DNA of 63,896 nt, the filler included, from Chrysochromulina tobinii (taxonomy: Eukaryota): assembly GCA_001275005.1 (NCBI GenBank). It is 9 parts of 9 records of this genome, joined end to end, with 100 filler letters (N's around TTAATTAATTAA, not from the genome) between each part and the next. Parts side by side here need not be neighbours in the genome. Positions count along the whole stretch, not along the records: positions 2,498 to 17,777 come from JWZX01001225.1; 8 more parts are not named here. One strand, 5' to 3'. The notes under the pieces are model-generated. The model saw only the letters and a program-made list of their open reading frames with translations, searched no databases and was not told the DNA's origin. The position numbers were made by a program, and so were the translations under genes. This document shows, piece after piece, positions 221 to 42,802 of the stretch (positions within the stretch are counted from its first letter, which is position 1; the number at the start of each line of letters is the position of its first letter).

Positions 221-778
221 GGAGCCTAAACACAGGTAGTGCGGCGTTACGCGGCGGGTTTAGGGTTAGGGTTAGGAGGGTATATTATTTTTTTGGTTAG
301 TAAAAACGTACGGAACCACGAGTTAGGCTGGAGCCTAACCACGAGTTAGGCGGGAGCCTAACCACAGGTAGTGCGGCGCTACGCGGCGGGTTTAGGGTTA
401 GGGTTAGGAGGGTATATTATTATTATGGTTAGTAAAAACGTACGGAACCACAGGCGGGAGCCTAACCACGAGTTAGGCGGGAGCCAAACCACGAGTTAGG
501 CGGGAGCCTAACCACAGGTAGTGCGGCGCTACGCGGCGGGTTTAGGGTTAGGGTTAGGAGGGGGGTTTATTTTAATTATGGTTAGTAAAAACGTACGGAA
601 CCACGAGTTAGGCTGGAGCCTAACCACGAGTTAGGCGGGAGCCTAACCACAGGTAGTGCGGCGCTACGCGGCGGGTTTTGGGTTAGGGTTAGGGTTAGGG
701 TTAGGGTTAGGGTTAGGGTTAGGGTTAGGGTTAGCGGGTTTAGGGTTAGGGTTAGGGTTAGGGTTAGGGTTAGGGTTG
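221..778 (+). repeat. Subtelomeric-type tandem array (units of ~132, 150 and 135 nt, each with short TTAGGG runs) ending in a ~100-nt (TTAGGG)n tract
   Basis: Units start GGAGCCTAA(A/C)CACAGGTAGT at 221, 353, 503 and 638 and contain internal AACCACGAGTTAGGC(G/T)GGAGCCT subrepeats. A near-pure TTAGGG tract runs ~673-778, followed by poly-G. Confidence 0.95.
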
Positions 779-2397: not shown

Positions 2398-2497
2398 NNN
2401 NNNNNNNNNNNNNNNNNNNNNNNNNNNNNNNNNNNNNNNNNTTAATTAATTAANNNNNNNNNNNNNNNNNNNNNNNNNNNNNNNNNNNNNNNNNNNN
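2398..2497. other. Artificial contig linker
   Basis: 44 N + TTAATTAATTAA (stops in all frames) + 44 N. Confidence 0.99.
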
Positions 2498-7410: not shown

Positions 7411-9978
7411 TCAAGCTGTGACGTCAGACCTAGCCAATCCGTGATGAGGCGGAGTTGGCAGGAACCTCCTGCGTGTCTGCTTGCTCTGCGTGAACTTCCA
7501 CGTCATCGCGAAGGGGAAGTTGCGTACCCGTCCATACAACGCCACGATGAGTACAATCCATCGACCCCACGTCGACAGATCGTACGTGAACCCGACGCCC
7601 GACACGCCAGGCTGCTTCGAGCCAAGAGAAAGCCCAACGTTGCCAAACGCGGAGCACAACTCAAAGAGGCCACGCCACGCAAAGGATATGGTGTGCCCGC
7701 ACTGGCTACCCTCAACTCCCGGTTCAAACATCTCAGCCATGTACTCTGACCTCCCGTAGACCGGGCAGGTGCCAGAGAGAAGTACCCAGGCGATGGAGAG
7801 CAGTGCCATGTCCATCTCAAGCGTTGGCGCCGTCAGAAAGTCAGCGAGGAAGGAGAGCACGGAGCGGACAGGCGGCCAGGCGTGCGCCCAGAAGAGCTCA
7901 CGGCACGAGACCCTTTCTTTGCGCGCGAGCCGAAACTCGATCGCCTCATCACTCTCATCCCATGCTCGTCCACCCTCGCGACGAAAGAAGAACGAACTTA
8001 GTTGCCTCACCCGCTCCTTCGTCGGGCTCCTAGATAACGACGCTGCCCTAGTCGACGCGTTCCCGCTCAGCCTATTCGATGAGTTTCCGACGCGAAGGTT
8101 GGCCAGAGACACCGCGATCGACATGCTGATCCGCCGGGCATTCTCTTCCGGGCTGAGCTTGTGGTTTCCCGTCGGGTTGGACTGATCGCCCACCGAGTGC
8201 TTTCTGCGTTTCCGAGTCCCGCTGAACGTATCTCTCACCGAAAGTTTGTGTGGTGTCGGCGCGAGCACCATGCACACGTTGAAGAGAATGATGACGTTCA
8301 CTTCATACGCATTCAGGTCGACGGTTTGGAACCCGGAGTGGCGTGCCTGCACGGCCATGTACGCCCCCTGCTGATCGCTGTTGATGTCGGAGGGTGAGGA
8401 GGCATGATGAAAGATTACCTGCAGGAGGAAGAGAGTGAGCTGCGTCAACAAGAGGAAGGTCGTCTGCTGCTGCGAGAGTAAGCCTGAGTAGAGTCGACGC
8501 CCACTCAGGAGCAGATGCTGCGCATAGATGCGCCGCCATGAGGTGACAGGGGATACGTAGAAGACGACAGCGATCGCACCCCGGATCACGAGGGGCGACA
8601 TCAAGTTGCCGGCGAGGACGAGCAGGGCGAGGACGGTCAGGACGCCGCCCCGGCTCACGTAGGCCATGAGCGAGGATGGCTCGAGGGAGAACCCACAGTT
8701 GTTGAACGCGGAGATGGTGAGGAACGCCGCGTGGCCTGCGACGTTACAGGGACGCGGCTCTGCCTGGTTGGCCGCGTCCGCGTAGCTGCAAGAGCCGCGC
8801 TCGGACTCAGCCAGCACGGCGAACTCGCCGCAGAGGGCCAAGAAGCCGATGACGTGCACGAGCACAAAGGAGGCAAAGATCAACTGGAGGAGGAGTCGAG
8901 TCGACTTGAGCTCGATGAGCCACTCGGGGATGGGTTCTGTTATGGCGTCGATGGGTGGCACTGGTAGATTGCGCACGGCCACGTTGGGCGTGAAGCGCCG
9001 TCGCAGCGCGTTGTAGTGCGCCACCATTGGTATGGCCGCGAGCAACCATGGCGATCCGAGTAGGATCAACAACGCAACGACGACCTGGCTGCCCCAGTGG
9101 AGGGCGGTGAGATTGAATGGGGTCAGGCCGGTGCTTGTCACCGCGTTCACGGCGATGAAGAACGCGTCGAAGTAGGCGAGCGGCGTGCGCCCGCTCTCGA
9201 TCCCAACGAGCACGCCCGCGCCGATGCAAGACACCACAACGAAGTACACCAGCACGATCAACTTGTACGGAAGGATGTGCGCGTGCAGATGCAGCTCGTC
9301 CATTCGTTGGATGTAGGGGGAGGGCAACGGATGAGAATTGGAATTGGCCTCGAGAGCGTCCTGTGCTTCCCCGATCGCGTGGGCAACGGTAGCCTTCTCG
9401 GGGGTGTCCCATCTCACCCCAGCGGTCTTGGCTTGGGCCTTGGCTTGAGCGTCTTCAGCGGCGGGCCGAGCATCGGCTGCTGCCTTCGACTTCGAGGTGC
9501 GCTCAAACGAGAGGCGCGCCTTGATCACTTCGCCGGCAGCAGTTGCCGTCCTTGCCGCTGCTCCCGAGATCTCTCGGGCCCAGCTCTCCATCGGCGACGG
9601 CGGCCGCTGGGGCGCTGGCACTGGCTGCGGGGGGGATGGCTCTGACGCCGGCGTGTCCTGAACCGCCTTGGCGGCCGCGACTTGAGCTACGGCCTTTCCT
9701 GTGGCCTGCGTCGCCGCATGGGCTTCATCTGAACGCGCTGCGACTCGTGTCTCTGGCTTCGCTCTCACCGGTGTAGCCGGTGTAGCCGCCGCCTCGGCGC
9801 GGTGGGGAGCCGCAGACGCAGCCCCTATCTCGATGCGATCCGTCTGTTCGATGGCGCTCTCCAATATTTTGGGTTTGGGTGGCCCCCAATTCATCAGCGT
9901 CTCCAGCACATTTTGAACACGTCCTGCGCTCGGAGGACTCGGAGGCGCTGTCCTGGTCGGATGCATTGGCATGCACAC
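7411..9978 (-). CDS. Trk/HKT (TrkH family) cation transporter
   Basis: Four pore-loop motifs (AVNAVTSTGLT, ISAFNNCGFS, ARHSGFQTVDL, LFELCSAFGNVGLSLG) and multiple TM helices. Gly in the first pore loop suggests a K+-permeable type. Confidence 0.9.
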   Translation of the reverse strand: MCMPMHPTRTAPPSPPSAGRVQNVLETLMNWGPPKPKILESAIEQTDRIEIGAASAAPHRAEAAATPATPVRAKPETRVAARSDEAHAATQATGKAVAQVAAAKAVQDTPASEPSPPQPVPAPQRPPSPMESWAREISGAAARTATAAGEVIKARLSFERTSKSKAAADARPAAEDAQAKAQAKTAGVRWDTPEKATVAHAIGEAQDALEANSNSHPLPSPYIQRMDELHLHAHILPYKLIVLVYFVVVSCIGAGVLVGIESGRTPLAYFDAFFIAVNAVTSTGLTPFNLTALHWGSQVVVALLILLGSPWLLAAIPMVAHYNALRRRFTPNVAVRNLPVPPIDAITEPIPEWLIELKSTRLLLQLIFASFVLVHVIGFLALCGEFAVLAESERGSCSYADAANQAEPRPCNVAGHAAFLTISAFNNCGFSLEPSSLMAYVSRGGVLTVLALLVLAGNLMSPLVIRGAIAVVFYVSPVTSWRRIYAQHLLLSGRRLYSGLLSQQQTTFLLLTQLTLFLLQVIFHHASSPSDINSDQQGAYMAVQARHSGFQTVDLNAYEVNVIILFNVCMVLAPTPHKLSVRDTFSGTRKRRKHSVGDQSNPTGNHKLSPEENARRISMSIAVSLANLRVGNSSNRLSGNASTRAASLSRSPTKERVRQLSSFFFRREGGRAWDESDEAIEFRLARKERVSCRELFWAHAWPPVRSVLSFLADFLTAPTLEMDMALLSIAWVLLSGTCPVYGRSEYMAEMFEPGVEGSQCGHTISFAWRGLFELCSAFGNVGLSLGSKQPGVSGVGFTYDLSTWGRWIVLIVALYGRVRNFPFAMTWKFTQSKQTRRRFLPTPPHHGLARSDVTA

Positions 9979-12311: not shown

Positions 12312-12553
12312 CGAGCTCACACCGCACACATACCGGGGTCGGTCGTGGGTGCGGAACAGCGTATATTATTTTAAGTAACGGAACCTGGTCGGGTGCTGTT
12401 CCCTGCTCGTCGAGGGTCATGTTCATGGTCGTCTGTCACAAGTCTGTGAGGATGAGGGACGCACCCGACCTCACGACACCGCGCACGCTCAGAACCGCGC
12501 CCTCCTGCAGCATTCTCTCAAGGTCAAGCAATCACCATCGCGATCGCCATCGC
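12312..12553 (+). repeat. ~240-bp direct repeat, copy 1
   Basis: Matches 13834..14076. The 3' ~140 nt are nearly identical; the 5' part is diverged. Confidence 0.92.
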
Positions 12554-12740: not shown

Positions 12741-13481
12741 TTAAGAGCCCTCCTCCGATGCCTCGGAGGAGTATTCGTACTCGTACAACTCCGCACGCGC
12801 ACCCGGGGGGATTACCAGGACCAAGGCCATGAAGAGACGTTCGTTACTGATGCCCATCGCGGCGGAAAAGCCCGGCGGGAAGTCGTCAAGCTCCAGCAGG
12901 CTGGCCGGGTCGCCTCCAGTACTGTGTAGCAGCGTCGCGATCTTTATGTGATGCTTCGCATCGCGCGCGAGGAGCTGGGCGATCATCTGTGGCCAAACGT
13001 CCGGGATGTCAGCATATGGAGGCACACAAAAGTGGGCACGTTGACTGACCTTGCGGCGATGCTGGGGCTCGCACTTAATTGTCCCACATATTAGCCCGCA
13101 CGCGAGGTGCAGCATCTTCTTGGTGACTCCCTTGTCCTTTAGACGTTCGGCTGCTGAACAAAGCCGTGAGGGAGCCTCGACCAGGTCGCGGATGGCCTCA
13201 TGTGGTTCGAGATCCTGGATGAGGCGATCGTAAGCGTCGATATCGAAGTCGGACCCGTCGGGCGTCTCCACGAGAGCTTTGACAACACCGATCGCGCACC
13301 ACAGACTTCTAGACGTCAGGAGCGACCTGTTCCACCACGTGTCGACGCGGGTCGTTGCAAGAGTGTGCGTGCGCTTGCAGGTGAGCATGAAGTTGGAGGC
13401 GTCGTTTAGAGGCAGCGCAGACGCGATGTGTACGATGATATCGTCTTCCAGTCTCGCGAAAAGCGACTCAGGCACCTCCAT
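12741..13481 (-). CDS. F-box domain protein
   Basis: N-terminal LFARLEDDIIVHIASALPLNDASNFMLTCKRTH fits the F-box consensus. Intronless. Confidence 0.7.
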   Translation of the reverse strand: MEVPESLFARLEDDIIVHIASALPLNDASNFMLTCKRTHTLATTRVDTWWNRSLLTSRSLWCAIGVVKALVETPDGSDFDIDAYDRLIQDLEPHEAIRDLVEAPSRLCSAAERLKDKGVTKKMLHLACGLICGTIKCEPQHRRKVSQRAHFCVPPYADIPDVWPQMIAQLLARDAKHHIKIATLLHSTGGDPASLLELDDFPPGFSAAMGISNERLFMALVLVIPPGARAELYEYEYSSEASEEGS

Positions 13482-13833
13482 TTTGCTGAGCTTGAGAGGA
13501 GGGACGGAGAGGGACGCAAAATTTAGATGGAAGATGGAACAAAGCTCTCTCAAGGATCGTCGCGTGCACATCTTTGCAAATGCATGCGCCCACTCTACCA
13601 GCCATTTTCTTGTTTTCCCCGCTGCATGGCCTAATCAACGTTCAGGTACATGTAATCGCAACACTACATCGTGTGACTCTGCTCTACCCTCGAGGTATCC
13701 GATAGAGGCTAGAGGATGAGAACCCCGTGGTGCTCGTTACGAGGTTCGGAAGCCGTTTGCCGCAGCGGCTCAGCCGTGCGCGTGTGTGCGCGATAATCGG
13801 CGACGAGCTCCGCATGTTTGGCCCGGACCTGGA

Positions 13834-14076
13834 CGAGCTCACACCGCACACATACCGTACCGGGGTCGGTCGCCGCGGGTGCGGAACAGTGCTGCAGTAT
13901 AAGTAACCGGAACCTGGTGCGCTGCTGCACACTAGAGGGTCATGTTCATGGTCGTCTGTCACAAGTCTGTTAGGATGAGGGACGCACCCGACCTCACGAC
14001 ACCGCGCACGCTCAGAACCGCGCCCTCCTGCAGCATTCTCTCAAGGTCAAGCAATCACCATCGGGATCGCCATCGC
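13834..14076 (+). repeat. ~240-bp direct repeat, copy 2
   Basis: Matches 12312..12553. Confidence 0.92.
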
Positions 14077-14119
14077 TAGATCTCACCCAGATCTCACCCT
14101 GATCTCCCTCAGATCTCCC

Positions 14120-17100
14120 TCAGATCTCCCAGACTTGCTTCGCCGGCAGGTCCGTCTCGATGCCCGGCTGTAACGGCTGTAACGGCTGTAACGGCAGGTC
14201 CGTCTCGACGCCCGGCTGTAACGGCTGCGAAAAGGCTCCCGAATAGCCTGGCGTGCGCAAAGGCGGCACCGGCTCTGGAGCTTCGGCCAAGTCCATGGCC
14301 TTCCGCGCACGCCGGCTGGCGCAGCAGCTGTCGAGCGGCGTTCCCTCGGACTCGAACGCACTCGTGAGCCACGAGAACGGGTGCGCGTGGTTCGTTGTGA
14401 TGAGCGCCTTCTCGTGCCCGTTGGCGTGCCCGTTGGCGCGCCCATTGGTCGCGTTGAGGGGGGCTGAGGGCCTCTCACCACCCGCGACGACGGCGCGCGC
14501 CTGATGAGGGTAGCAATCAGAGGCACTCAGAGACCATCAGAGCTCATCAGAGGCCATCAGAGCCCATCAAGAGGCCGCGTCTCTGTCAGGCCTCGCCCGC
14601 AACGGCGCGCTTGCCTCTTGGAGCCTCTGCTCGACAGCGCTCTTATCAGCGTCGGAGAGGAAGTAGGGATGCTCGAGCGCCGCGTCGAGCAGCCGTTGAT
14701 ACTCTTCCACAGCCGCGCTCGGCTGGCCTAGCAGCAGCAGCATTTTGGTCGAGAGGATGGCAGGGCCGGAGCGTCCGCACAACTCAAAGGCTTCAAGAAA
14801 GTGGGCGCGTGCCACAGCGTACTCGCCACGGTCGCAGGCCTGCACACAGGCAGTGTACCGACCCTAGCGCTCAGCTGCCATCATGCGCAATCAGCTGTCC
14901 TCTCAGTCGCAATTAAGTCGCAATCAGTGCACCATCAGGGGCTCCTCACGGTCACCTGCTGGCCCGCCTTGAGTGCACTCACGTACGCCTTGGCCGCCCT
15001 CGCTCGCATGAGAGCCTGGATCTTCTTGCTCGCCTCGTCCTTCGCGGGGGGGGCAGCCTTGGGGGCAGCGTTGAGATTGGGGGAGATGAGATTGGAGGAG
15101 ATGATGAGCTCCTCGAGCGGTGCGCCCACGACGGCGCGCGCCACCTGCCCCCCTTGCTCCTCGGCGATCTCATCGAGGAGATCATCCTCGATGGCGTCCT
15201 GCAATCAACCGCAATCAGTGGTACTCAGCGGTACTCAGCGGGGGCAGCCCTAGCCACCCGGCCGCAATCATAGGCGATCAGGCGTCATCGCAACGGCCAT
15301 GCTCACCTGCTTCGCCCGGTGCATCCCAAGCACCTCCCCCTCTGGCACGGGCTCTGCCGCAAGGGAGATGAGCTGCACCGACCAGCGCGCTTCCTTATTT
15401 GGCAAGGGGGCGCTCGCATTGTCGGCATGAGGGTGCGTGCCCATGCCCTCGGTCTCGCGTACGCGCAACGGGCGCTGGGCTATCGCCCGATAAGGAGTGA
15501 TCATGCACAACTCGGCCGCCTCCCTCTGCTTGGTGGCTAGCAGCTTCTGAGCGCGGTCCGAGAGACCCACGAGGTGCTGCACGGCGGATGGCAAGAAAGG
15601 CCTCAGTATTGTCGTAGCCATCCGTAGCCACCCAAACGGCCATCGGTCGCCACCGAAAAGGCCATCCGTAGCCATCAATCATAATCATAATCAAACATAC
15701 ATCAGCCGCAATCAGTGCCTGTCGCACCTGTGCGAGGTACGCATATTCCGCCGCCGCCGCATGCGCCTCGCCAAGCTTGAGACTCATGTTCGCAGCCGAC
15801 AGCCGAGCCTCGAGGTGGCCCCTGAGCGCATACCTGATGAGGGATGCACTCAGAGCTCATCAGTGCCCATCAAAGCTCATCAGAGACCATCAGAGACCAT
15901 CAGGCAGCCGAGCTTTGAGGTGGCCCATGGGCGCCGTGCTGAGCGCATACACAGCGAGGAAGAGCTCGCGCGCTTCCTGGAAACTTCCGCACGTGTTCGC
16001 GCTGTTGGCGCGCTTGAGCGTGGTTTGGTAATGCTCGTTCTCTTCCTTGAGGCCCTGCGCGCGCGTATACATGGTCGCCATATGGCACCATCAGTGCCCA
16101 TCATTCGCAATCAGTGGCACTCCATGGCACACCCAGTCGCGCGCAGAGGCTTGCTCACCTGCTTACGCGCCACGTAACCTTGTGCTGAATGGCAATCAAA
16201 GGTCGTCATCAGGGGCCATCCGAAGGCCATCCGAGGCCATCATGCTCACCTTCTCGCGCGCCACGTGGCCTTGTGCTGGCAATCAATGGCAATCAATGGC
16301 AATCAATGGCAATCACCTTCTCGCGCGCCACGTGGCCTTGTAAGTACGTCTGCAAGCGCACCGACGTCGCGTCCCGAGCGGCCGCGTACCTGATGAGGGA
16401 GGCCATCAGGGCGTACATCAGAGCGCACATCAAAGGTCGTCATCAGAGGCGATGAAGGCTATGGGCGGTCTCGATCGGTCGCGTACTCGGAGGTGTGAGG
16501 CTTCGCGGCGAGTTGCGCCTGCTGCGCCTTGGCGAGCTTCATCTCCACATGAGTGAGCAGCTTCAACTCCGATTCGGAGACGCCTGTCACGGCGCCGCTC
16601 TCAAACGACCTCATCAGCACCTCGTACTCGTCGTGCGCCTCCTGTGAACACGACCCAAATATGGACGACCAGCAGAGGCCATCAGAAGCAATCAAAGGCC
16701 ATCAGAAGCCAGCAAGCAGTGGCCATCAGAAGCCCTCCGTGGGCATCAGACGTCATCAGAGGTCATCATAGGTCATCATAGGTCTTCAGAGGGCATCAGA
16801 GGTTATCAGGGGTCATCAGAGGGCATCAGAGGTCATCAGAGGGCATCAGAGGTCATCACAGGTCATCAGTGGCCCTCCGTGGGCTTCAGTGGCCCTCGCA
16901 CCTGCGCACGCCCGAGCTTGAGCGACATGTTGGCCGCCGAGAGTGCCGCGTACGGCTGGCCCGAGAGCTCATAGCACTGCAGGAAGAGAATGCGTGCAGC
17001 CGCGGGGTGACCTGCTTGATTCTCAGCCATCCCGGCGGCCATGAGCTGGGCGTACGTCATGGATCCAGCGACACCCATGACGGCGCCATGAGCGGCGCGA

Positions 17101-17777
17101 GCCACCTTGTCGTGGCAGAGCACAGGCCCGCGATCGTGACAGGGGAGCTGAAGGGGCTCCTCCTCGTGAGCGACCGGCACGGCGCTCTTCACACTCAGCC
17201 CATCACGGCGCTCGGTGCTCCGCTCGGGGCCCGCCACGACGCTCGGCTCGGCGGTGCCGAGCCGTTTGGACGCCTCCGACGGCGCACGGGCTTCGGGACG
17301 TGACGACGAGCTTGCCTCCGTGATTCCCTCCGAGCTTCCCATCGAGATTCCATCCGAGACCCTCTCCGAGACCCCCTCCGTGCTTTTCTCCGAGATCCCC
17401 TCCGTGCTTTTCTCCGAGACCCCCTCCGTGCTTTTCTCCGAGACCCCCTCCGTGCTTTTCTCCGAGACCCCCTCCGAGATTCCCTCCGAGATCCCCTCCG
17501 ACGGCCCGCGGGAGTCGGGGCGTGACGCCGAATGCGAGGGCTGTTTCGGTGGTGGCTTTGGGAAGGCTCGGGCGATCGAACGCACGAGGGTTTCGTCTTC
17601 GGCTGTCGTGGTCGCGGTCGCTTTTGTTGCTTTTGTTGCGGTCGTCACAGTGGCGGCGGCGGCGGCTGTGGCTGTAGCGGCGGTGGTGGCTGTAGCGGCG
17701 GCGGCGGCTGTAGCGGCGGTGGTGGCTGTGGCTGTAGCGGCGGTGGTGGAGGCGGCAGGGGGAAGGGGCGGGGGCGA
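14120..17777 (-). CDS. TPR-like repeat + IQ-motif protein, 5'-partial, 8 predicted repeat-filled introns
   Basis: Removing introns 16642..16901, 16390..16486, 16055..16316, 15834..15950, 15577..15727, 15199..15306, ~14864..14955 and 14501..14614 gives one frame. It encodes three TPR-like pairs (ARxLFLxxYEL...LSAANMSLKLG) and IQ-like motifs (VRLQTYLQGHVARE, KIQALMRARAAK). Confidence 0.75.
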
Positions 17778-17877
17778 NNNNNNNNNNNNNNNNNNNNNNN
17801 NNNNNNNNNNNNNNNNNNNNNTTAATTAATTAANNNNNNNNNNNNNNNNNNNNNNNNNNNNNNNNNNNNNNNNNNNN
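17778..17877. other. Artificial contig linker
   Basis: 44 N + TTAATTAATTAA + 44 N. Confidence 0.99.
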
Positions 17878-25306: not shown

Positions 25307-28300
25307 CTACAGCATCAAGTCAAATCCACTCCGGTCCTTCACCGCATCTCGCACCGCTTTTTTCCCTGCATCTCCCATGTCATCATTGGCCCGGATGTCC
25401 AGTTTGGTCAGGACCGCGTTGACCTTCAGCGCCTCCGCGATCGCCTTGGCACCGTCAACGCCGATGTTGTTGCGGTACAACTCGAGCTTGGTCAGGACCG
25501 CGTTGACCTTCAGCGCCTCCGCGATCGCCTTGGCACCCTCGATCCCGATGTTGTTGTCGTCCAAGTCCAAGCCGGTCAAGACCGCGTTGACCTTCAACGC
25601 CTCCGCGATCGCGATGGCACCCTCTGGTCCGATGTTGTTGCTGTTCAGGCCCAGGGTGGTCATGACCGCGTTGACCTTCAGCGCCTCGGCGATCGCGATG
25701 GCACCCTCCGGACCGATGTTGTTGTTGCTGAGCCATAGCTTGGTCACGACCGCGTTGACCTTCAGTGCCTCCGCGATCGCCTTGGCACCCTCATCCCCGA
25801 TGCTGTTGTTCGGGAGGAAGAGGATGGTCACCACCGCGTTGACCTTCAGCGCCTCCGCGATCGCCTTGGCACCATCGTCGCCAATGGAGTTGCGCCTCAA
25901 CTCCAGGTCGGTCAGGACCGCGTTGACCTTCAGCGCCTCCGCGATCGCCTGAGCACCCTCGTCCCCGATCTTGTTCTCGTACAGGCCCAGGGTGGTCACG
26001 ACCGCGTTGACCTTGAGCGCCTCCGCGATCGCGATGGCACCCTCAACCCCGATCTTGTTGCCTTCGAGGTTGAGGGTGGTCATCACCGCGTTGACCTTCA
26101 GCGCCTCCGCGATCGCCTTGGCACCCTCATCCTCGATGTTGTTGACGGTGAGGTAGAGGGTGGTCACCACCGCGTTGACCTTCAGTGCCTCCGCGATCGC
26201 CTTGGCACCCTCATCCCCGATGCTGTTGTTCGAGAGGACGAGGGTGGTCACCACCGCGTTGACCTTCAGCGCCTCCGCGATCGCCTTGGCACCCTCGTCG
26301 CCGATCTCGTTGCCGCCGAGCTCGAGCTCGGTCACCACCGCCATGAACTGCAGGTCCGACCCGATCAGGATGGCGTCGGCGGGTTGAAGCCTCTGGCTAT
26401 CCAACTTGGGTTGAAGCCTCTGGCTATCCAACTTGGCCTCCGTCTGGTCGCGCCTCATGCCCGAGAGCATGATGCCCTTCTCCGCGCCGATCTTGGCGAG
26501 CATCGTGGCCGACTCAACATCCAGGCTGTTCTTGAGCAGGCTGCAGTTCTTCAGCGCCGTGGTCTTCAACAAAGCAGGGGCAAGCGCTCGAGCATCCTCT
26601 GCATCGAGCTTGTTCTGGCTCAGGTCGAGCGTCCTCAGCTCGCTGGCATTGGCGACCACAGCCGCCAGCACACGCCGCACCGTCGGCCGGTCGCCGCCGA
26701 GCTTCCGCGAGAGGTCGAGCGTGTCGCCCGTCACCCCGGCCGCGCGCAGCAGCCCACGACCGAAGCGGTCGCCCGGAATCTCGGCGCCGAGCTTCACCGT
26801 GTTCGCCCACCACGCGGGCCACTGCCACGGCGGCGTGCCCGAGAGCTCGATGCCCTCGTCGCAGAGCGCGATCGCAGCAAAGTACTCCTGGAACGAGAGG
26901 TGTGACGACTGCAGCTGCAGCGGCTCGGACTGCCACAGGCTGAGCAGTGGCAGCGCGTCGACGAGCACGCGCTCGCGCACCGTGCGCAGCGCCTCGCGCA
27001 GCGCCACCGACAGGCGCGCCTCGCACGCCACGCGCACGGCGGCCTCGCTCGCGCTTGCATCCATCGCACGCTGGAGGAAGGCCGTCTCATTCAGGCCCGA
27101 GGAGCGCAGGGAGGAGGGATGGAGCCATTGGCTCATCGTGTGGTCAGCAAAGGTGACCCTGTACGGTCTTGCGATCGCGTAAGCATGCTCGCTACAAATC
27201 TCGCATTGACATTCCATGCAGTCGTAGCTGTCGGTCTCATCGTCGGCCGTGATCACGCCGCGCCTGCCCTCGTGCTCACACTGCTCCTCCAAAGTGGCCG
27301 TCACCTCAACGTAGTGACCGATCGCGGCGCGGCCCCCAAAGGGCTTGAAGGCCATCTTCGCCACCGCCTCGGCCCGAATCTGTGCGAGCGCCTCGGGCGC
27401 CTCCAGGCCGAGCGCCGCCTCGTCCAGCTGCCGGTCCTCAATGAGGCGGCGCTGCGCGACGTGCGCCTCAAAAAAGATGGCGCTGCGCGACGTGCGCCTC
27501 AAAAAAGATGCGCTGCAGCAGCCGCGCGAGCTCAGGCGACGTGACGCCTCCGCGCGCGAGCATCGCGTCGGACGCGGTCGCGTACAGCTCGGCGACCGTC
27601 CGGGGCATGCCCATGCCCTGCCGCAGCTCGTACACGGCAGCGACCATCGAGAGCATCAGCGGGTTGCTCGTCACCTTCTGGCCTGTGTCGTCGCGCGGCA
27701 TCACGTCGCGCACGTACGTCAGCAGCGCGGCCGCGCGCTCCGCGCCGAGGCGCTGCTCGAGCGCGCGCTCCTGCTGCTCGTCCGAGAGCGGAGCGAGCGA
27801 GAGGCGGCGGAAGGCGGCAAAGCGCGCCTCGTCGATGCCCGCCGGTCGCGAGGTGCAGAGCAGCACGTGGCCCTGCGGCGCGAGCACGTCGACCACGTGG
27901 CGCTCAATGTCGTCGCGCTTGGCGCCGGCCTCGTCGAGCCCGTCGAGGAGGAGCAGCGCGCGCCGCGCCATCATCGCCTGACGCAGCATGCGGTAGAGCG
28001 CGGGGCGGCTCGCCTCGTGCTCGAGGCGCAGGAAGGCATCCATGTAGTTCCACGCGCCCGCAAAGGCGTCGGGCGCCTCGAGCAGCCGCCGCTGCAAGAC
28101 CTGCACCTTGACCAGGATGGGCACGAGCTCCGTGCGCTCGTCTTGGAGCGCGACCATCACCACCTGCGACAGCAGCGTCGTCTTGCCGTTCGCGGGGCCG
28201 GCGGTGAGCAGCACCGCGAGTGGACCCTCTGTTGGGCCGCCCTCGAGCCGCGCGCCGTGCTGCGCAAGCAACCATGCGGTCAGGCTGTGCGCGTCGCGGA

Positions 28301-34410: not shown

Positions 34411-37400
34411 ATGCCCAGGCGCGTAGATCTCTGTGGCACCTATGGCTGCACCTTGCCAAATAATCATCGCGGCCTCCACCAATTCCCCCAAGACGAAAGC
34501 CGACGCAAACGCTCCAAGCCAGACTCGTCGTCGCAACCGACGGGGCGCGAGAGCATCAAGTTTGATCGCGAGCCCGATCCCACGTCTACCTCCGAGCCTG
34601 GACCCGTCCCCGATGGCGAGCCGGATGGTGAGCCCGATGGCGAAATCGATGGCGATTGCACTGGCGACGACGTCGAAGACGAGGACGAGGACGACGTTGA
34701 AGACGATGACGACGTTGAGGACGAGGACAACGAGGAGGACGCAGAGGAAGGCGAGGAAGCGATGGATCAGCCAGAGCAAGACGACGAGGAGGAGGAGGGG
34801 GAAGCAGACGATCCGGATCCGATCGGAGCGGGCGGTCGGGCATCCTCAAGGGCCCCCTTCGACAAGAGTCGGCAGCGCCCGTGCAAGAAGACGCCGTACT
34901 GTTCGCGCTGGCACAACCACCCGGGCTTATGCAAGACGCCGCAGCAGTGCGAGAAGCATCCCAAATGCTGGCGGCCGTTCAAGCATCAGGGCAAATGCAT
35001 GATCCCCGCGCCGTGCCTCAAGGACCCGCGCTGCGCGCGCGCCCAGGGCCACTCGGGCATCTGCCGCATGGTCAAGCTCCCCGGCTTTGACGATGCTCTG
35101 CCGGTGAGTCGCAAGGAGTACAAGGGGGCAAGGGTGGAGTTCAAGGGGGCAAGGGTGGAGCTCAAGGGGGCAAGGGTGGAGTTCAAGGGGGCAAGGGCCG
35201 TGCCCAAGCTGTCCAGACCGACAGCCGCCCGATCCGCGGAGGCGGCGGCCGCCGCGGAGGCGGCGGCGGCGGTCTCGTCAAGTCGGGGCCGCGCCGCCAT
35301 CCAGGCCGCGCTCGAGTTCGTGCCCGGACCCATGCCCGAGGGCGACGGGACCGAGGCCGATCAGGCGCAGCTGGCCCACATCAACCCGTATCGGTGCACG
35401 CGCCACCACCTGTGCGTACGCGGGCGCAAGCACCCGGGCCTGTGCAAGATGCTCGACGCCTACGCGCCCGTCATCGACCGCATCCTTGGCAAGGCCAGCA
35501 CGACCATCTACTTGCAGGGTCGCCCCGTCTCGCAGCAAGTGTACCTCGTGCAGCACGAGGGTCGCTCGCGCGCCCAGGCGATTTGGGAGCCTGCCACTCG
35601 TATCCTCGACGACCTCGCGTTCCAGGCCTTCGAAAATGAGATCGAGCCGGTGCGCCGCTTTGCCCGACCGTCCGACACGGCCGGCGACGACGCGAGAGAG
35701 GAGCCGAGCGGTGCGGCCAACGATCCCGCGAATGGCGTCATCCTGCCCGCGCGCAAGGGCGAGGCGAATGAGCCGACTCCGCCGCCGCCGCTGGCCAGTC
35801 GCAAGAGTCGCGCTGGAGTGTCTGCGGAAGGTGAGGGGGAGGTTGGTGAGGAGGAGGGCGAGGACGACGTCGGGGAGGAGGACGAGGACGACTCGCGCAA
35901 TGTGTACGACTCGGAGGGGCGGCGGCTCTGCAACACCTTTGGGTGCACGCTGCTCAACAACCACTTTGGGCTGCACAAGCTGCCCTCCGTCGAGAACAAC
36001 GAAGGGCGACAGAAGCGCCAGTCGTCGCAGATCAACTTTAGGAAGCTCGCGTCCAAGGGGCTCGAGCGCGCGGAGATCGGGCAAGGGCGGCAGCTCGGCA
36101 AGCCCGACGCGGTCCTCGAGAGAATGCGAGAGAAGAAGAAGGCGATGCGCCTCCCAGAGCCCGAGCCGCTGCTCCGCCCGCACGAGGGCATCTCCGCGCT
36201 GCTCGCAGGCGAAGACCTCGCCGAGCTCGAGGACGACGCCGACGCCGATGCCGACGCCGACGAGGAAGTGTGGTCCGCGGGCCAAAAGATCAAGCGGCAC
36301 AAGAGTGAGACGGACGGCGGCGAGGCTGGCGGCGGTGGCTCCATTCGCTCGCGGCCCAACCACAAGTTTGGCATTGGCTCGCGCGTGCGGTACCTGCGCC
36401 CGGGCTCGGCGCAGGGGTGTGGCGGCACCATCGTCGACGCCAAGTGCGGCTACTGGGTCGTCTCGATCGACGGCGGGCCGCGCGCGCCCGTGTACGCGCG
36501 CGCCTCGATGCTCGAATCGCTCGAGGGTGGTGAGGTGGCGCCCGCCGGGAGTGCCCGTGACAGCGCGCTCTACTCGTCGCAGGCCCAGGGCGCCGTCTCG
36601 GGCGCGATGGTTGGGCTGAGTGCGCGGGCGGCATCGAAGCAGCGGGAGGACATGGGCGCCGAGGACATGGGCGGCGACGGTAGCTTCAGCTGCGGCTACT
36701 GCGGGCGCAAGCTCGCCAACGCAGGCTCGCACGCCAACCACGAGCGCGCGTGCGCCGCTGCGCTGCAGCTCAAGGTCTATCCGAACCCAAACCGACTGAT
36801 TGCATGCTGATGGCCACTCATGCTGAGCCCTGATGACTTCCCTCATCAGGTCTATCCGGACGATTCCGCGCAGAGGCGCAACCCAGGCGCGGACAGCCAG
36901 TGCCGTCGCAACCCGCTGTGCGTGCGTGGGCTGCGCCACCGGGGGCTGGGCGGCCCGTGCCGGCTCAGCGGCGAGCCGGGGGTGCTTCCCAAGCGGCCGA
37001 GCGGCAAGCAGAAGCTCAAAGGACGGAAGCCCGGCAGCCGCAGCGGCCCCTCGGGCCGCAGTGGGCGGCGCAAGCCCAAGCACGATGTGGAGGTGGACGA
37101 TGAGGAGGAGGGAGAGGAGGAGGAGGAGGAGGAGACCCCCTATGAGGGCGGCGGCGGCGGCGGCGGCGGCGGCTCCTCTCGCGCGGGCGGCGGCGATGGG
37201 CAGCGCGCTCGCCCGACCTCAACTCGCCAGATCAAGAAGACGACCATCCCGGGGCGGGTGGGGCACGCGATTGTGGGGCGTACCATCGAGGTCTTCTGGC
37301 AGGCGGACGGATGGCAGGAGGGGCGTGTACTCAGCTACAACCCGGCGACGGGCAAGCACACTGTCGAGTACACGCACCAGGGAGCCATAGAGCAGCTGAC

Positions 37401-39888: not shown

Positions 39889-42802
39889 TCACCCGACCGC
39901 ACCGCCGGCAAGCGAAGCGACCGTGCATGCGCCTGCGCTGGTGTCGAAGCTGAGCCCGTGGAAGGTCGGCACGCAGCCGGCTGAGATCTCAAAGTGCGGC
40001 TGCAGCTTCTCCCAGAGCTTCTTTTTTGGCGGGAGCACGTCGAGTGGCTCGCCGCTGACGCCCGCAAAGGCAATGCGCTCGCCCACCGCCGCACCGGCCG
40101 GCGGGTCGATGATCTCGATCTTGCTACATGGCTCGTCGCGGGCCTTGCCGCAGAGCACCATCGCCTGCGACTCTACGTTCTTGAGCTTCGAAGGCTTCAG
40201 GTTGCACAGCACGATGACCTTGCGGTTCCGCATCTGCTCAATGGGCACGTGCTTGACGAGCCCGGACACGACTGTCCGCGGCGCGCCCTCGCCCAGGTCG
40301 ATCTGCTCCACGTACAAGCCATCCGCCTCAGGGTGGCGCTCCACAGCCACGATCAGGCCGACGCGGATATCCAAGATGGCCACGCTCGTGCCGTCCACGA
40401 TCCCAACGCCGCCACCTGCTGCAGCCTCCTCCGCAGCCTTCTCGGCGGCCGCGGCGGCGGCTTGCTTCTTGGCCGAGGCTGCCTTTTTCTTCTTCTCCTC
40501 CTCCGCTGCAGCCGCCTGCGCAGCGAGCGCACTCAGTGGCACTCAGTGGCACTCAGTGGCACTCAGTAGCACTCAGTGGCACTCAGTGGCACTCAGTGGC
40601 ATCAGTGACACTCGCCTGCGCCGCGAGCGCCTCCGCGGTGTCGACCTTGGCGTACATGATGTCGCCGACGCTCGTGAGCGTGCCGGGCTGCAGGTTGGTC
40701 AGGGTCGAGCGCAGCTGGCAGATGGGCAGCGGAGGGGTGCCGAGCATCGTGAAGACACGGCCGACGCCGTCGGTTAGGAAGGGCGCCAGGAAGTGGCACG
40801 CGACGTAGATGGCCTCGAGGGTGGTCCGCAGGATCACGAGCCGCTTGTGCGGGTCGTCCTTGATCTTCCAGGGCTCCTTGTCGGTCAGGAACTTGTTGAC
40901 CGTACTGAGCGCGCTCGTGGCGAGGCTGGCGGCAACGTCAATCTGGTAATTCTTGTACGCGGCCTCGGTGGCGGTGCGCAGCTTGTCGACGTCGAGGTCG
41001 ATCTCGCACGGCAGCTGGGAGGGGATCTTGCCATCCGTGTAGCTCTTGCACAGGTTGAGCGAGCGGTTGACGAGGTTGCCAAACGTGTCCGCGAGCTCGG
41101 CGTTGTGACGCAGCGCGAGCGCGGTCTCGTTGAAGGTGACGTCGCCGCCAAAGGTGCACTCGCGCATCAGGAAGAATCGGAACGAGTCCACAGGAAAGCG
41201 AGCGAGCACGTCGTACGGATCGACCACGTTGCCGTACGACTTGGACATCTTGCGCCCATCGGGGCCGTGGACGAAGCCGTGCGCGAGCACCGTCTTGGGC
41301 AGCGGCACCCCCGCGCACATGAGCAGCGCGGGCCAGATCACGCAGTGGAACCAGATGATGTCCTTGCCGATCAGGTGGCAGGAGGCCGGCCAAAAGTGCG
41401 CGAGTGGCGACGATCTTGAAGGATCAGGTGCGGTGGGGTCGTACCCGATGGCCGTGATGTAATTCGAGAGCGCGTCGAACCACACGTACATGACGTGGCC
41501 GGGGATGTCGCCCGGGACCGAGATGCCCCAATCGAAGGTGGTGCGCGAGACGGAGAGGTCCTTCAACGGCACCGCGAGCCTCTCGAGCACCTCGTTGCGC
41601 CGCGCCTCGGGCACGATGAAGTCCGCATGGGTCTGGATGTGCTCGATGAGCTTCTGCTGGTACTCGGACAGCTTGAAGAAGTAGGAGGGCTCCTCCATCT
41701 TCTTGAGCGGCACGCCGCTGCTCGGGTCCTTGTAGTCGTTGGCGAGCGCGTCGCTGTCGGTGACGAAGGTCTCCTCGCGCACGTTGTACCATCCCACGTA
41801 CATGCCCAGGTACACGCCGCCCTGCTGCTCGCACTTGGCCCACAGCTTGCGCGCGATCGTCTTGTGCGCGTCCGAGGTCGTGCGCACGTACCCGTCGTAC
41901 CGGCAGTTGAGCGCGTGGTCGAGCTCCTGGAACTGCGCCACGTGCTTGTTGCACAGCTCGATGGGCTGAAGCCCCTGGGCCGCCGCCGTGTCCGCAATCT
42001 TCTGGCCGTGCTCATCCGCGCCCGTGAGGAAGAAGACCTCGCGCCCATACGCGCGATGGTACCGCGCGATCACATCGGCCGCGATCGCCTCGTACGCGTG
42101 ACCCATGTGCGGCGGCCCATTGGCGTAGTTGATCGCCGTCGAGATGAAGTAGGAGCCGCATTCGGGTTTGGGCGGGAGCGGCGGGAGCGTCGCACTCTCT
42201 GCTGGCAGCGCCCCCCCCGCCGCTGACGGGGCGGCCGGTCGCGGCGGGGGCGGGGTCGCGAGTGAGGTAGCCGACGCGCTCAGGTCGCTCGCCTCAAACC
42301 AGAGGTCACGAAGGCGTGCGACGTCTGCGTCGTCCTTCGCGAGCTCGATCAGCGGATCGGCGGTCACTTTGACCACGCTCAGGTCGCCGCGGATGCTGCC
42401 GGGCAGAGCTCGCGCCGGATCATCATCGCCGACGAGGGTGCGCACCGTGCTGAGGGCGTTCGGCCCTTTCCACAGCGTCACGATCACGGGCCCAGGGGCA
42501 AGCACGGAGACGAGCTCAACAAGCTCCGATTTCGGCACGGAGCCATAGTGGTTCTTGGAGAGGTCCGCACCCGGCTTAAGCATACGCATGGCGCACAGCG
42601 TGAGGCCACGGCGCTCAAAGCGCAGGCATATCTCCGAAACGAGCGAGCCTTTGATTACCGCGGGCCGAAGCAGCACGAAGGCGATTGAGTCGCTGCAGCT
42701 GCCGCCGGTGGAGGCAAGAGCACGCGCCGGACGAGCCTGAAGCGGGTTGAGCTCCGCGAGCTTTGCGAAGGCGTTCGTCGGGCCGACTTGTGGACCGTCC
42801 AT
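39889..42802 (-). CDS. MARS: Methionyl-tRNA synthetase with N-terminal NDK-like domain and C-terminal EMAPII/Trbp-like tRNA-binding domain, join(40616..42802,39889..40515)
   Basis: HMGH (HIGH-like), TGADEHGQKI, YVWFDALSNY, GKDIIWFH, KMSKS. A 100-nt GC-AG intron joins in frame to LDIRVGLIV...HPEADGLY...RTVVSGL...NLKP...SQAM. Confidence 0.95.

What the first reader, a model, noticed from the sequence alone, without database searches (positions are those of the whole stretch)
16055..16316. Nested intron with three serial copies of the exon end and internal AG|GT sites
Seen (minus strand): the exon end ACAAGGCCACGTGGCGCGCGAGAAG|GTGA recurs inside the intron exactly (junction 16250/16249) and in diverged form (ACAAGGTTACGTGGCGCGTAAGCAG|GTGA, 16159/16158). 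Each copy is followed by a different repeat tract. Removing 16055..16316 restores REK|GLKEE. Inference: repeated insertion at one site, leaving zero-length AG|GT ratchet points suited to recursive splicing. Divergence among the copies gives a relative chronology.
Basis: partly seen in the sequence, partly recalled or inferred. Interest (0 to 1): 0.78.

Follow-up and report, generated by a model that had tools for sequence, protein, structure and literature searches.

The report
Stacked mini-introns carrying exon-end copies
A 262-base intron of a freshwater haptophyte alga is three intron-like units laid end to end, the first two ending in a copy of the preceding exon's last 25 bases; it likely arose as a by-product of this genome's habit of duplicating exon sequence around its introns, and it would give the same mRNA whether cut out in one step or in pieces, which remains untested.

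Summary
Three copies of the exon end (25/25 and 20/25 identical, each followed by GTGA) sit at the stated coordinates, in unique single-depth DNA contigs and in a second strain (L002), so this is not assembly stutter. Removing 16055-16316 gives a frame colinear with a homolog. One RNA contig fits that junction (inferred from depth); micro-exon inclusion would frameshift. The organism is Chrysochromulina tobinii-like. Exon copies at intron edges are common here (6 of 13 introns beat a cross-intron null). Units 1 and 2 share their 3' ends, so module duplication fits better than independent insertions, and L002 shows such a duplication in the next intron. A second three-copy stack about 4.5 kb away in L001 has no donor after its third copy, so ratchets are not maintained there. 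Recursive use is untested: one site is a plausible CAG|GTGAGC, the other an atypical AAG. The scan noted exon-duplication introns in this genome before, and abutting-intron stacks in other genomes. Verdict: new variant of known intron-gain-by-duplication; moderate interest.

The parts
16317..16389 (-). Upstream exon (73 nt); its last 25 nt (16317-16341) are copy 1, within an IQ-like motif
   Evidence: RNA contig X14 record 13 covers 16382-16316; the aligned stretch of homolog P0008 has a weak Pfam IQ hit below cut-off
16055..16316 (-). Whole 262-nt intron, donor GTGATT, acceptor CAG
   Evidence: frame, gap-free alignment with P0008 across the junction, RNA depth arithmetic
16250..16316 (-). 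Unit 1 (67 nt; 117 nt in L002): GT donor, 10-mer tandem tract (16277-16315, 3.9 copies), exact exon-end copy 2 (16250-16274) ending AAG
16159..16249 (-). Unit 2 (91 nt): donor GTGAGC, mixed 10-11-mer tract, diverged exon-end copy 3 (16159-16183) ending CAG; the best candidate internal AG|GT site is 16159/16158
16055..16158 (-). Unit 3 (104 nt): donor GTGAGC, tract, terminal CAG; its last ~24 nt may be a fourth, decayed exon-end copy (15 of 25 columns, anchored p=0.015, post hoc)
15951..16054 (-). Downstream exon
16390..16486 (-). Neighbour intron (97 nt) that begins with a copy of the downstream exon start; shares a 17-nt segment with unit 2
   Evidence: RNA record 13 skips 97 nt here
15834..15950 (-). 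Neighbour intron (117 nt) beginning with a copy of the downstream exon start; in L002 its exon-copy-plus-tract module is duplicated in tandem (69 nt more)
14501..14614 (-). GC-AG intron (114 nt) of the same gene, beginning with a decayed copy of the downstream exon start
   Evidence: RNA record 14 skips 114 nt
40516..40615 (-). Single-unit example elsewhere in the window: GC donor, 10-mer tract, acceptor inside a copy of the upstream exon end
   Evidence: p=0.0017; sequence only, no RNA
36775..36849 (+). Intron beginning with a copy of the downstream exon start
   Evidence: sequence only
14100..17777 (-). Host gene: repeated TPR-like helical domains with IQ-like linkers; 5' part runs past the N join; 3' end approximate

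Best explanation
The intron is a head-to-tail stack of intron-like units that likely formed as a by-product: the genome's 10-mer intron filler was likely inserted at the exon-intron boundary with a duplication of about 30 bases of exon end plus donor, and that module was then likely duplicated in tandem and its tract reshaped by slippage. Shown: the stack, the same exon-copy habit in neighbouring introns, a strain-specific module duplication next door, and a second stack. Inferred: the order of events and the DNA-level cause (repair of a staggered break, or a degenerate non-autonomous element with a long target duplication). Because each copy ends in AG and each unit starts with GT, one-step removal, 5'-first ratcheting and 3'-first peeling would all give the identical mRNA, which likely explains why the stack is tolerated. 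I judge the internal sites incidental rather than selected. If one is used it is most likely CAG|GTGAGC at 16159/16158 (about 40% that it is used in a sizeable share of transcripts), and much less likely the AAG site at 16250.
For: Exon copies at intron edges: 7 of 12 modelled window introns reach p<0.05 in an anchored test (three of the seven only at p=0.015-0.018, two tests per intron), and 6 of 13 exceed the 95th percentile of a cross-intron null of 156 pairs. All 4 sense-strand acceptors ending CCCTCATCAG start with a copy of the next exon. Units 1 and 2 share their 3' part and breakpoint. L002 has a 69-nt tandem module duplication in the next intron and five more 10-mers in unit 1; RNA-run record 26 also steps back within that intron. 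A second 263-nt stack in L001/L003 (336-598, DnaJ-X gene) has modules 1 and 2 alike end to end and AG|GG after copy 3. The filler is genome-wide: summed DNA depth 6765 over the unit-1 tract bin against about 35 for unique DNA. Every single-internal-donor or micro-exon product hits a premature stop. Modelled introns of 260 and 250 nt have no internal AGGT.
Against: No allele lacking a unit was found (0 of 3 loci), so the order of events is not observed. The gradient 25/25, 20/25 and possibly 15/25 fits serial insertion just as well. Copy 3 has changed AAG to CAG, the acceptor used by 12 of 12 modelled introns, which could reflect selection for use. The internal donors score as well as the first against the U1 consensus (7 of 8 each), so they are unlikely to be simply ignored. 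5 of 12 introns show no edge copy. The survey covers only 13 introns, 8 of them in one gene, and only 4 besides the finding have RNA support. The 260- and 250-nt introns are not RNA-verified.
Confidence: 0.58

Rival explanations
1. Three independent insertions of an intron-making element at the same exon end, each duplicating the exon end and pushing the older intron inward.
For: Ordered divergence of copies. The terminal acceptor may be a fourth decayed copy (p=0.015). The single-unit form exists at 40516-40615. Chrysochromulina Introners that co-opt the 3' site from the target duplication are described (PMC9860276).
Against: Units 1 and 2 share the bases in front of the copy and the same breakpoint. 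Module duplication is directly seen between strains and in the second stack. Unit 3 and unit 1 are not alike as element copies would be. Described duplications are 3-9 nt, not 25-32.
Confidence: 0.22
2. A functional, obligatory recursive-splicing intron: under intron definition the cell must remove 67+91+104 nt (or 158+104 nt) pieces through zero-length exons, and selection keeps the AG|GT sites.
For: Each unit has a donor, a YTGAT branch-like motif 34-38 nt from its AG, and a length near the 75-151 nt of most modelled introns. Internal donors are as good as the first. There is precedent in a 336-nt S. pombe intron (10.1101/226894), and nearest-site pairing in fungal stwintrons (PMC7138796). 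Both sites are unchanged in L002, though with only 3 substitutions in units 2-3 this is expected anyway.
Against: The AAG acceptor at 16250, with competing AGs upstream at 16270 and 16276. The donor is missing after copy 3 of the second stack. No intermediate was seen in 3 RNA runs laid (depth too low to count as a test).
Confidence: 0.15
3. An internal copy is used as a real exon piece: micro-exon inclusion, or a GC donor inside copy 1 (16337/16336) joined to copy 2 and then donor 2.
For: Two GC-donor routes keep the frame, one giving the identical protein; GC donors are used in this gene (14614).
Against: 26-nt micro-exons frameshift. The CAGs in front of both copies are GAG in L002. The homolog aligns without a gap, and the RNA contig length leaves no room for an extra piece. 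The identical-protein route needs a weak GC donor and an AAG acceptor and cannot be excluded by mature RNA.
Confidence: 0.05
4. Assembly stutter.
For: Copy 2 is exact and flanks a tandem repeat longer than the assembly word size.
Against: Distinct flanks in separate single-depth contigs; same three copies in the diverged strain L002.
Confidence: 0.01

Closest known systems
[quoted passage not shown] 2C; section 7 read; Polarella classes, 10.1101/2020.10.14.339549, passages)
   Same: Unit carries a donor and takes its AG from duplicated exon sequence; no terminal inverted repeats; same genus; the mirror type (carried acceptor, donor from the duplication) also occurs in this gene.
   Different: Described duplications are 3-9 nt and fixed per family; here about 12-32 nt and variable. 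The filler is a degenerate tandem 10-mer, not an end-to-end conserved element. The units are stacked with no exon between; 'nested', 'same position' and 'recursive' did not occur in the Polarella preprint.
Intron gain by tandem genomic duplication and by double-strand-break repair (review PMC3443670, passages)
   Same: A duplicated segment holding AG|GT gives both splice sites with no change to the coding sequence; direct repeats flank inserted filler.
   Different: Here it happened at an existing exon-intron boundary, so it lengthened an intron into a stack rather than making a new intron position; the filler is a genome-wide intron repeat.
Zero-length-exon recursive splicing (S. pombe SPNCRNA.445, 336-nt intron; 10.1101/226894, passages; Drosophila ratchet points, recalled)
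   Same: Abutting acceptor and donor inside a short intron.
   Different: There use was shown by spliceosome profiling and the sites are conserved across species. Here use is untested, one acceptor is AAG, and the sites come from exon-end copies.
Fungal stwintrons, incl. Lipomyces [D6,7] with duplicated donors (PMC7138796; abstract, introduction and passages)
   Same: Complex intron of several U2 units from donor duplication; can be removed in one or two reactions.
   Different: Stwintrons are nested within a splice element so that order is forced. These units abut and interrupt no element, so order would be free. The duplication is 29-32 nt against 4-7 nt.

Membership tests
Recursive (zero-length exon) intron | Adjacent acceptor and donor inside the intron | tested here: met
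   AAG|GTGAGC at 16250/16249 and CAG|GTGAGC at 16159/16158
Recursive (zero-length exon) intron | Acceptor of the kind the organism uses, with branch-like motif upstream | tested here: inconclusive
   met for 16159 (CAG, TTGAT 38 nt up); 16250 is AAG against 12 of 12 CAG
Recursive (zero-length exon) intron | Splicing intermediates or lariats at the internal site | not testable with these tools
   only assembled metatranscriptome contigs at depth about 3
Recursive (zero-length exon) intron | Conservation of the internal site above background | tested here: inconclusive
   unchanged in L002 but background change is only about 2-3%; the second stack lacks one internal donor
Recursive (zero-length exon) intron | No exon included at the site in mature RNA | tested here: met
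   frames, homolog colinearity, RNA contig length (inferred)
Introner element | Short fixed target duplication (3-9 nt) where present | tested here: not met
   25 nt plus 4-7 nt of donor here; about 12-24 nt in neighbours; range from PMC9860276
Introner element | Family of end-to-end similar introns at unrelated positions | tested here: inconclusive
   shared 10-mer filler and a shared 10-nt acceptor end in 5 introns, but no end-to-end family among 13 introns; no genome-wide set examined
Introner element | Splice site co-opted from duplicated target sequence | tested here: met
   AG of units 1 and 2 lies in the exon copy
Introner element | Empty site in an ortholog or allele | tested here: inconclusive
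   0 of 3 loci lack a unit, but the pattern only finds close relatives
Stwintron | Internal intron interrupts donor, branch or acceptor of the external intron | tested here: not met
   units abut; all donors and the terminal acceptor are intact

The most novel reading that the evidence does not exclude
Haptophytes of this genus have an intron-making process that copies 12-30 bases of exon around a 10-mer filler rich in branch-point-like motifs. When it strikes an existing intron boundary it creates ready-made zero-length exons, giving short introns that are peeled off stepwise in any order, including 3'-first. The genome would then hold hundreds of young, polymorphic recursive sites: a natural series for watching recursive splicing arise and decay.
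Probability: 0.28. Interest if true: 0.72.

Novelty: new variant of a known kind. Interest (0 to 1): 0.43.

Why it matters
It offers a concrete, datable route by which zero-length exons can appear without selection, and a small culturable alga in which order of splicing (one step, 5'-first, 3'-first) can be read from intermediates that are distinguishable with reads overhanging more than 25 bases. Two three-copy stacks among 13 introns suggest many more in the genome. Such stacks may also mislead gene prediction: the database proteins for the DnaJ-X gene read into the second stack (P0047) or skip it (P0051). If recursion is not used, it remains a tidy example of intron growth by exon duplication and is of modest interest.

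Tried and rejected
Assembly stutter: rejected. Micro-exon inclusion through the CAGs at 16276 and 16185: rejected on frame and on their being GAG in L002. A word-index protein search with the 76-aa exon P0001 found nothing (0 of 562 candidates); the full-scan search with P0002 gave 24 hits, unnamed or unrelated by name among the 8 looked up. Joint and loose-end tables were dominated by other loci sharing the 10-mer tracts and were not used. Absence of RNA cover over 16134-16224 in X14 is no evidence either way. My first control (exon 60-100 nt downstream) was confounded by nearby repeats and was replaced. My early idea that the internal donors are clearly stronger than the first was not borne out (7 of 8 each). 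My note of 8 of 12 introns was a miscount: it is 7 of 12. The idea that copy 3 preserves an ancestral, more IQ-like protein reading was considered and left as speculation. The L002 site identity was not counted as conservation. Paper searches that returned nothing or nothing relevant on haptophyte intron stacks: (0 papers). The C. tobin genome paper mentions introns once, giving only an average count (passages). No supplements were read; the family tables of PMC9860276 may hold long-duplication Chrysochromulina families that I have not seen.

Full report
Observation. On the minus strand the exon end at 16341-16317 recurs exactly at 16274-16250 and with 5 of 25 differences at 16183-16159, each followed by GTGA. 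The exact 25-mer occurs twice in the window, against none in 100 shuffles. Removing 16055-16316 (262 nt, GT...AG) opens the frame. The DNA is real. In run X11 two contigs with 0 differences and depth 34-35 carry the copies in distinct flanks (this run may be the source sample). A scan of metagenome contigs gave 3 loci, all with three copies: L001 and L003 are identical to the window here, and L002 is a strain with about 2-3% substitutions and five more 10-mers in the first tract.

Organism and gene. A neighbouring gene on the same contig (L001) matches a protein named Chrysochromulina tobinii at 100% over 54% of the query. The host gene encodes repeated TPR-like domains (weak Pfam hits). A nine-exon model aligns with unnamed homologs, and P0008 aligns without a gap across the junction in question. 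RNA contigs bridge four other introns of the gene. For this intron, X14 record 13 (266 nt, depth 2.9) has 220 nt placed up to 16316. Its last 46 nt were not listed, but the depth in the two downstream bins equals 11.0 + 35.1 bases at that depth, which is what joining to 16053-16008 predicts. So the mature junction is inferred from one contig; 3 of 6 RNA runs were laid. Use of an internal donor alone, or inclusion of either or both 26-nt copies, gives a premature stop, and the CAGs in front of both copies are GAG in L002.

Anatomy. The intron is three abutting units of 67, 91 and 104 nt, each with a GT donor, a tract of 10-11-mers holding YTGAT motifs 34-38 nt before its end, and a final AG. 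The AG of units 1 and 2 lies in the exon copy. The end of unit 3 may be a fourth, decayed copy (15 of 25 columns; anchored p=0.015, found after the fact). The tracts belong to a genome-wide repeat: summed DNA depth over the unit-1 bin is 6765 against about 35. That haptophyte introns are rich in such 10-11-mers I recall for Emiliania; no call confirmed it.

It is a local case of a general habit. Of 12 modelled introns in the window, 7 have an edge that copies the adjoining exon at p<0.05 (three are weak, two tests each, 5 show nothing). With the L001 stack added, 6 of 13 exceed the 95th percentile of a cross-intron null. Two types occur: introns ending CCCTCATCAG that begin with a copy of the next exon (4 of 4 in the window), and introns ending in a copy of the previous exon end (40516-40615). 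An earlier, unchecked note of this scan on the same genome describes the first type (e1-2577349).

How the stack likely grew. Units 1 and 2 share the bases in front of the copy and the same breakpoint, which independent insertions would not readily give. In L002 the next intron carries a 69-nt tandem duplication of its exon-copy-plus-tract module. About 4.5 kb away in L001/L003 a DnaJ-X gene has a second three-copy intron (263 nt; units 71, 74, 118) whose first two modules align end to end. Its third copy is followed by GG, not a donor, and runs on into a decayed copy of the next exon; homologs P0049, P0050 and P0052 read colinearly across that junction by eye. I infer one insertion with a duplication of about 30 nt, then module duplication by unequal exchange or template switching, then slippage. 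Serial insertion remains possible: the copies do diverge in order, and no allele lacking a unit was found. The chronology is fragile, since both units differ between strains at the same base in the same way (C/C against G/G).

How it is likely spliced. Because every unit is GT...AG and nothing lies between them, one-step removal, 5'-first ratcheting and 3'-first peeling would all give the same mRNA (follows from the sequence). For stepwise use: units are of ordinary intron size, internal donors match the U1 consensus as well as the first (7 of 8 each), 16159 is CAG, and a 336-nt S. pombe intron uses a zero-length exon (10.1101/226894, passages). Against selected ratchets: 16250 is AAG while 12 of 12 modelled acceptors are CAG, modelled introns of 250 and 260 nt have no internal AGGT (not RNA-verified), and the second stack lacks one internal donor. 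No intermediates were seen, but the RNA data could not have shown them. I put use of 16159/16158 at about 40% and an obligatory, selected ratchet at about 15%.

Comparison. It works like an Introner that takes its acceptor from the target duplication, as described for Chrysochromulina sp. with 4 nt (PMC9860276, passages and section 7), and like intron gain by tandem duplication or break repair (PMC3443670, passages). It fails Introner membership on duplication length (3-9 nt there; 3-8 nt in the Polarella passages) and shows no end-to-end family in this small sample. It is not a stwintron, as no splice element is interrupted (PMC7138796, first part and passages). PMC12130899 (passages), PMC10228655 (passages) and PMC4580454 (passages) added nothing on stacks. 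Ten library searches showed no paper on stacked exon-copy introns in haptophytes; the library lacks most subscription journals and no supplements were read. The scan has noted abutting-intron stacks in several other genomes, none with RNA proof of recursion as far as the notes say.

Verdict. A real feature and a new variant of known intron gain by duplication; recursion is untested and probably incidental. Interest 0.43.

Noticed in passing
L001:316-598 (+), same in L003: Second three-copy stacked intron (263 nt, GC donors) in a DnaJ plus DnaJ-X gene; no donor after the third copy; database proteins for this gene read into it or skip it.
   Followed up: partly
window 16276 and 16185 versus L002: The base four positions before both internal copies is C in both units of the window strain and G in both units of L002: a concerted difference that hints at exchange between units; unexplained.
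   Followed up: partly
window 16196-16212 and 16430-16446: An exact 17-nt segment is shared by unit 2 and the upstream intron, and occurs only these two times in the window; either local templating or a common tract motif.
   Followed up: partly
window 15834-15950; L002:1732-1808: Strain-specific tandem duplication of an exon-copy-plus-tract module; RNA-run X19 record 26 shows a similar step back.
   Followed up: partly
window 12312-12553 and 13834-14076: A ~250-nt segment (87% alike) lies on both sides of an intronless ORF at 12741-13571; L002 follows the 12553-12249 copy after the gene end, as if the ORF block were an insertion absent from L002.
   Followed up: no
window 314-777: GGGTTA telomere-type array with 23-nt satellite units near the window start.
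   Followed up: no
window 2398-2497, 17778-17877 and six more: Eight N44-TTAATTAATTAA-N44 linkers: the window is a join of separate contigs, so neighbourhoods across them mean nothing.
   Followed up: yes
window 25397-26341: Eleven 84-nt repeats, recalled as the 28-residue leucine-rich repeat type common in Chrysochromulina.
   Followed up: no
window 7411-9972 (-): 853-aa intronless ORF that reads like a Trk/HKT-type cation transporter (by eye, not searched).
   Followed up: no
window 16166: Decay of copy 3 has produced a further donor-like GTAAGC inside it.
   Followed up: no
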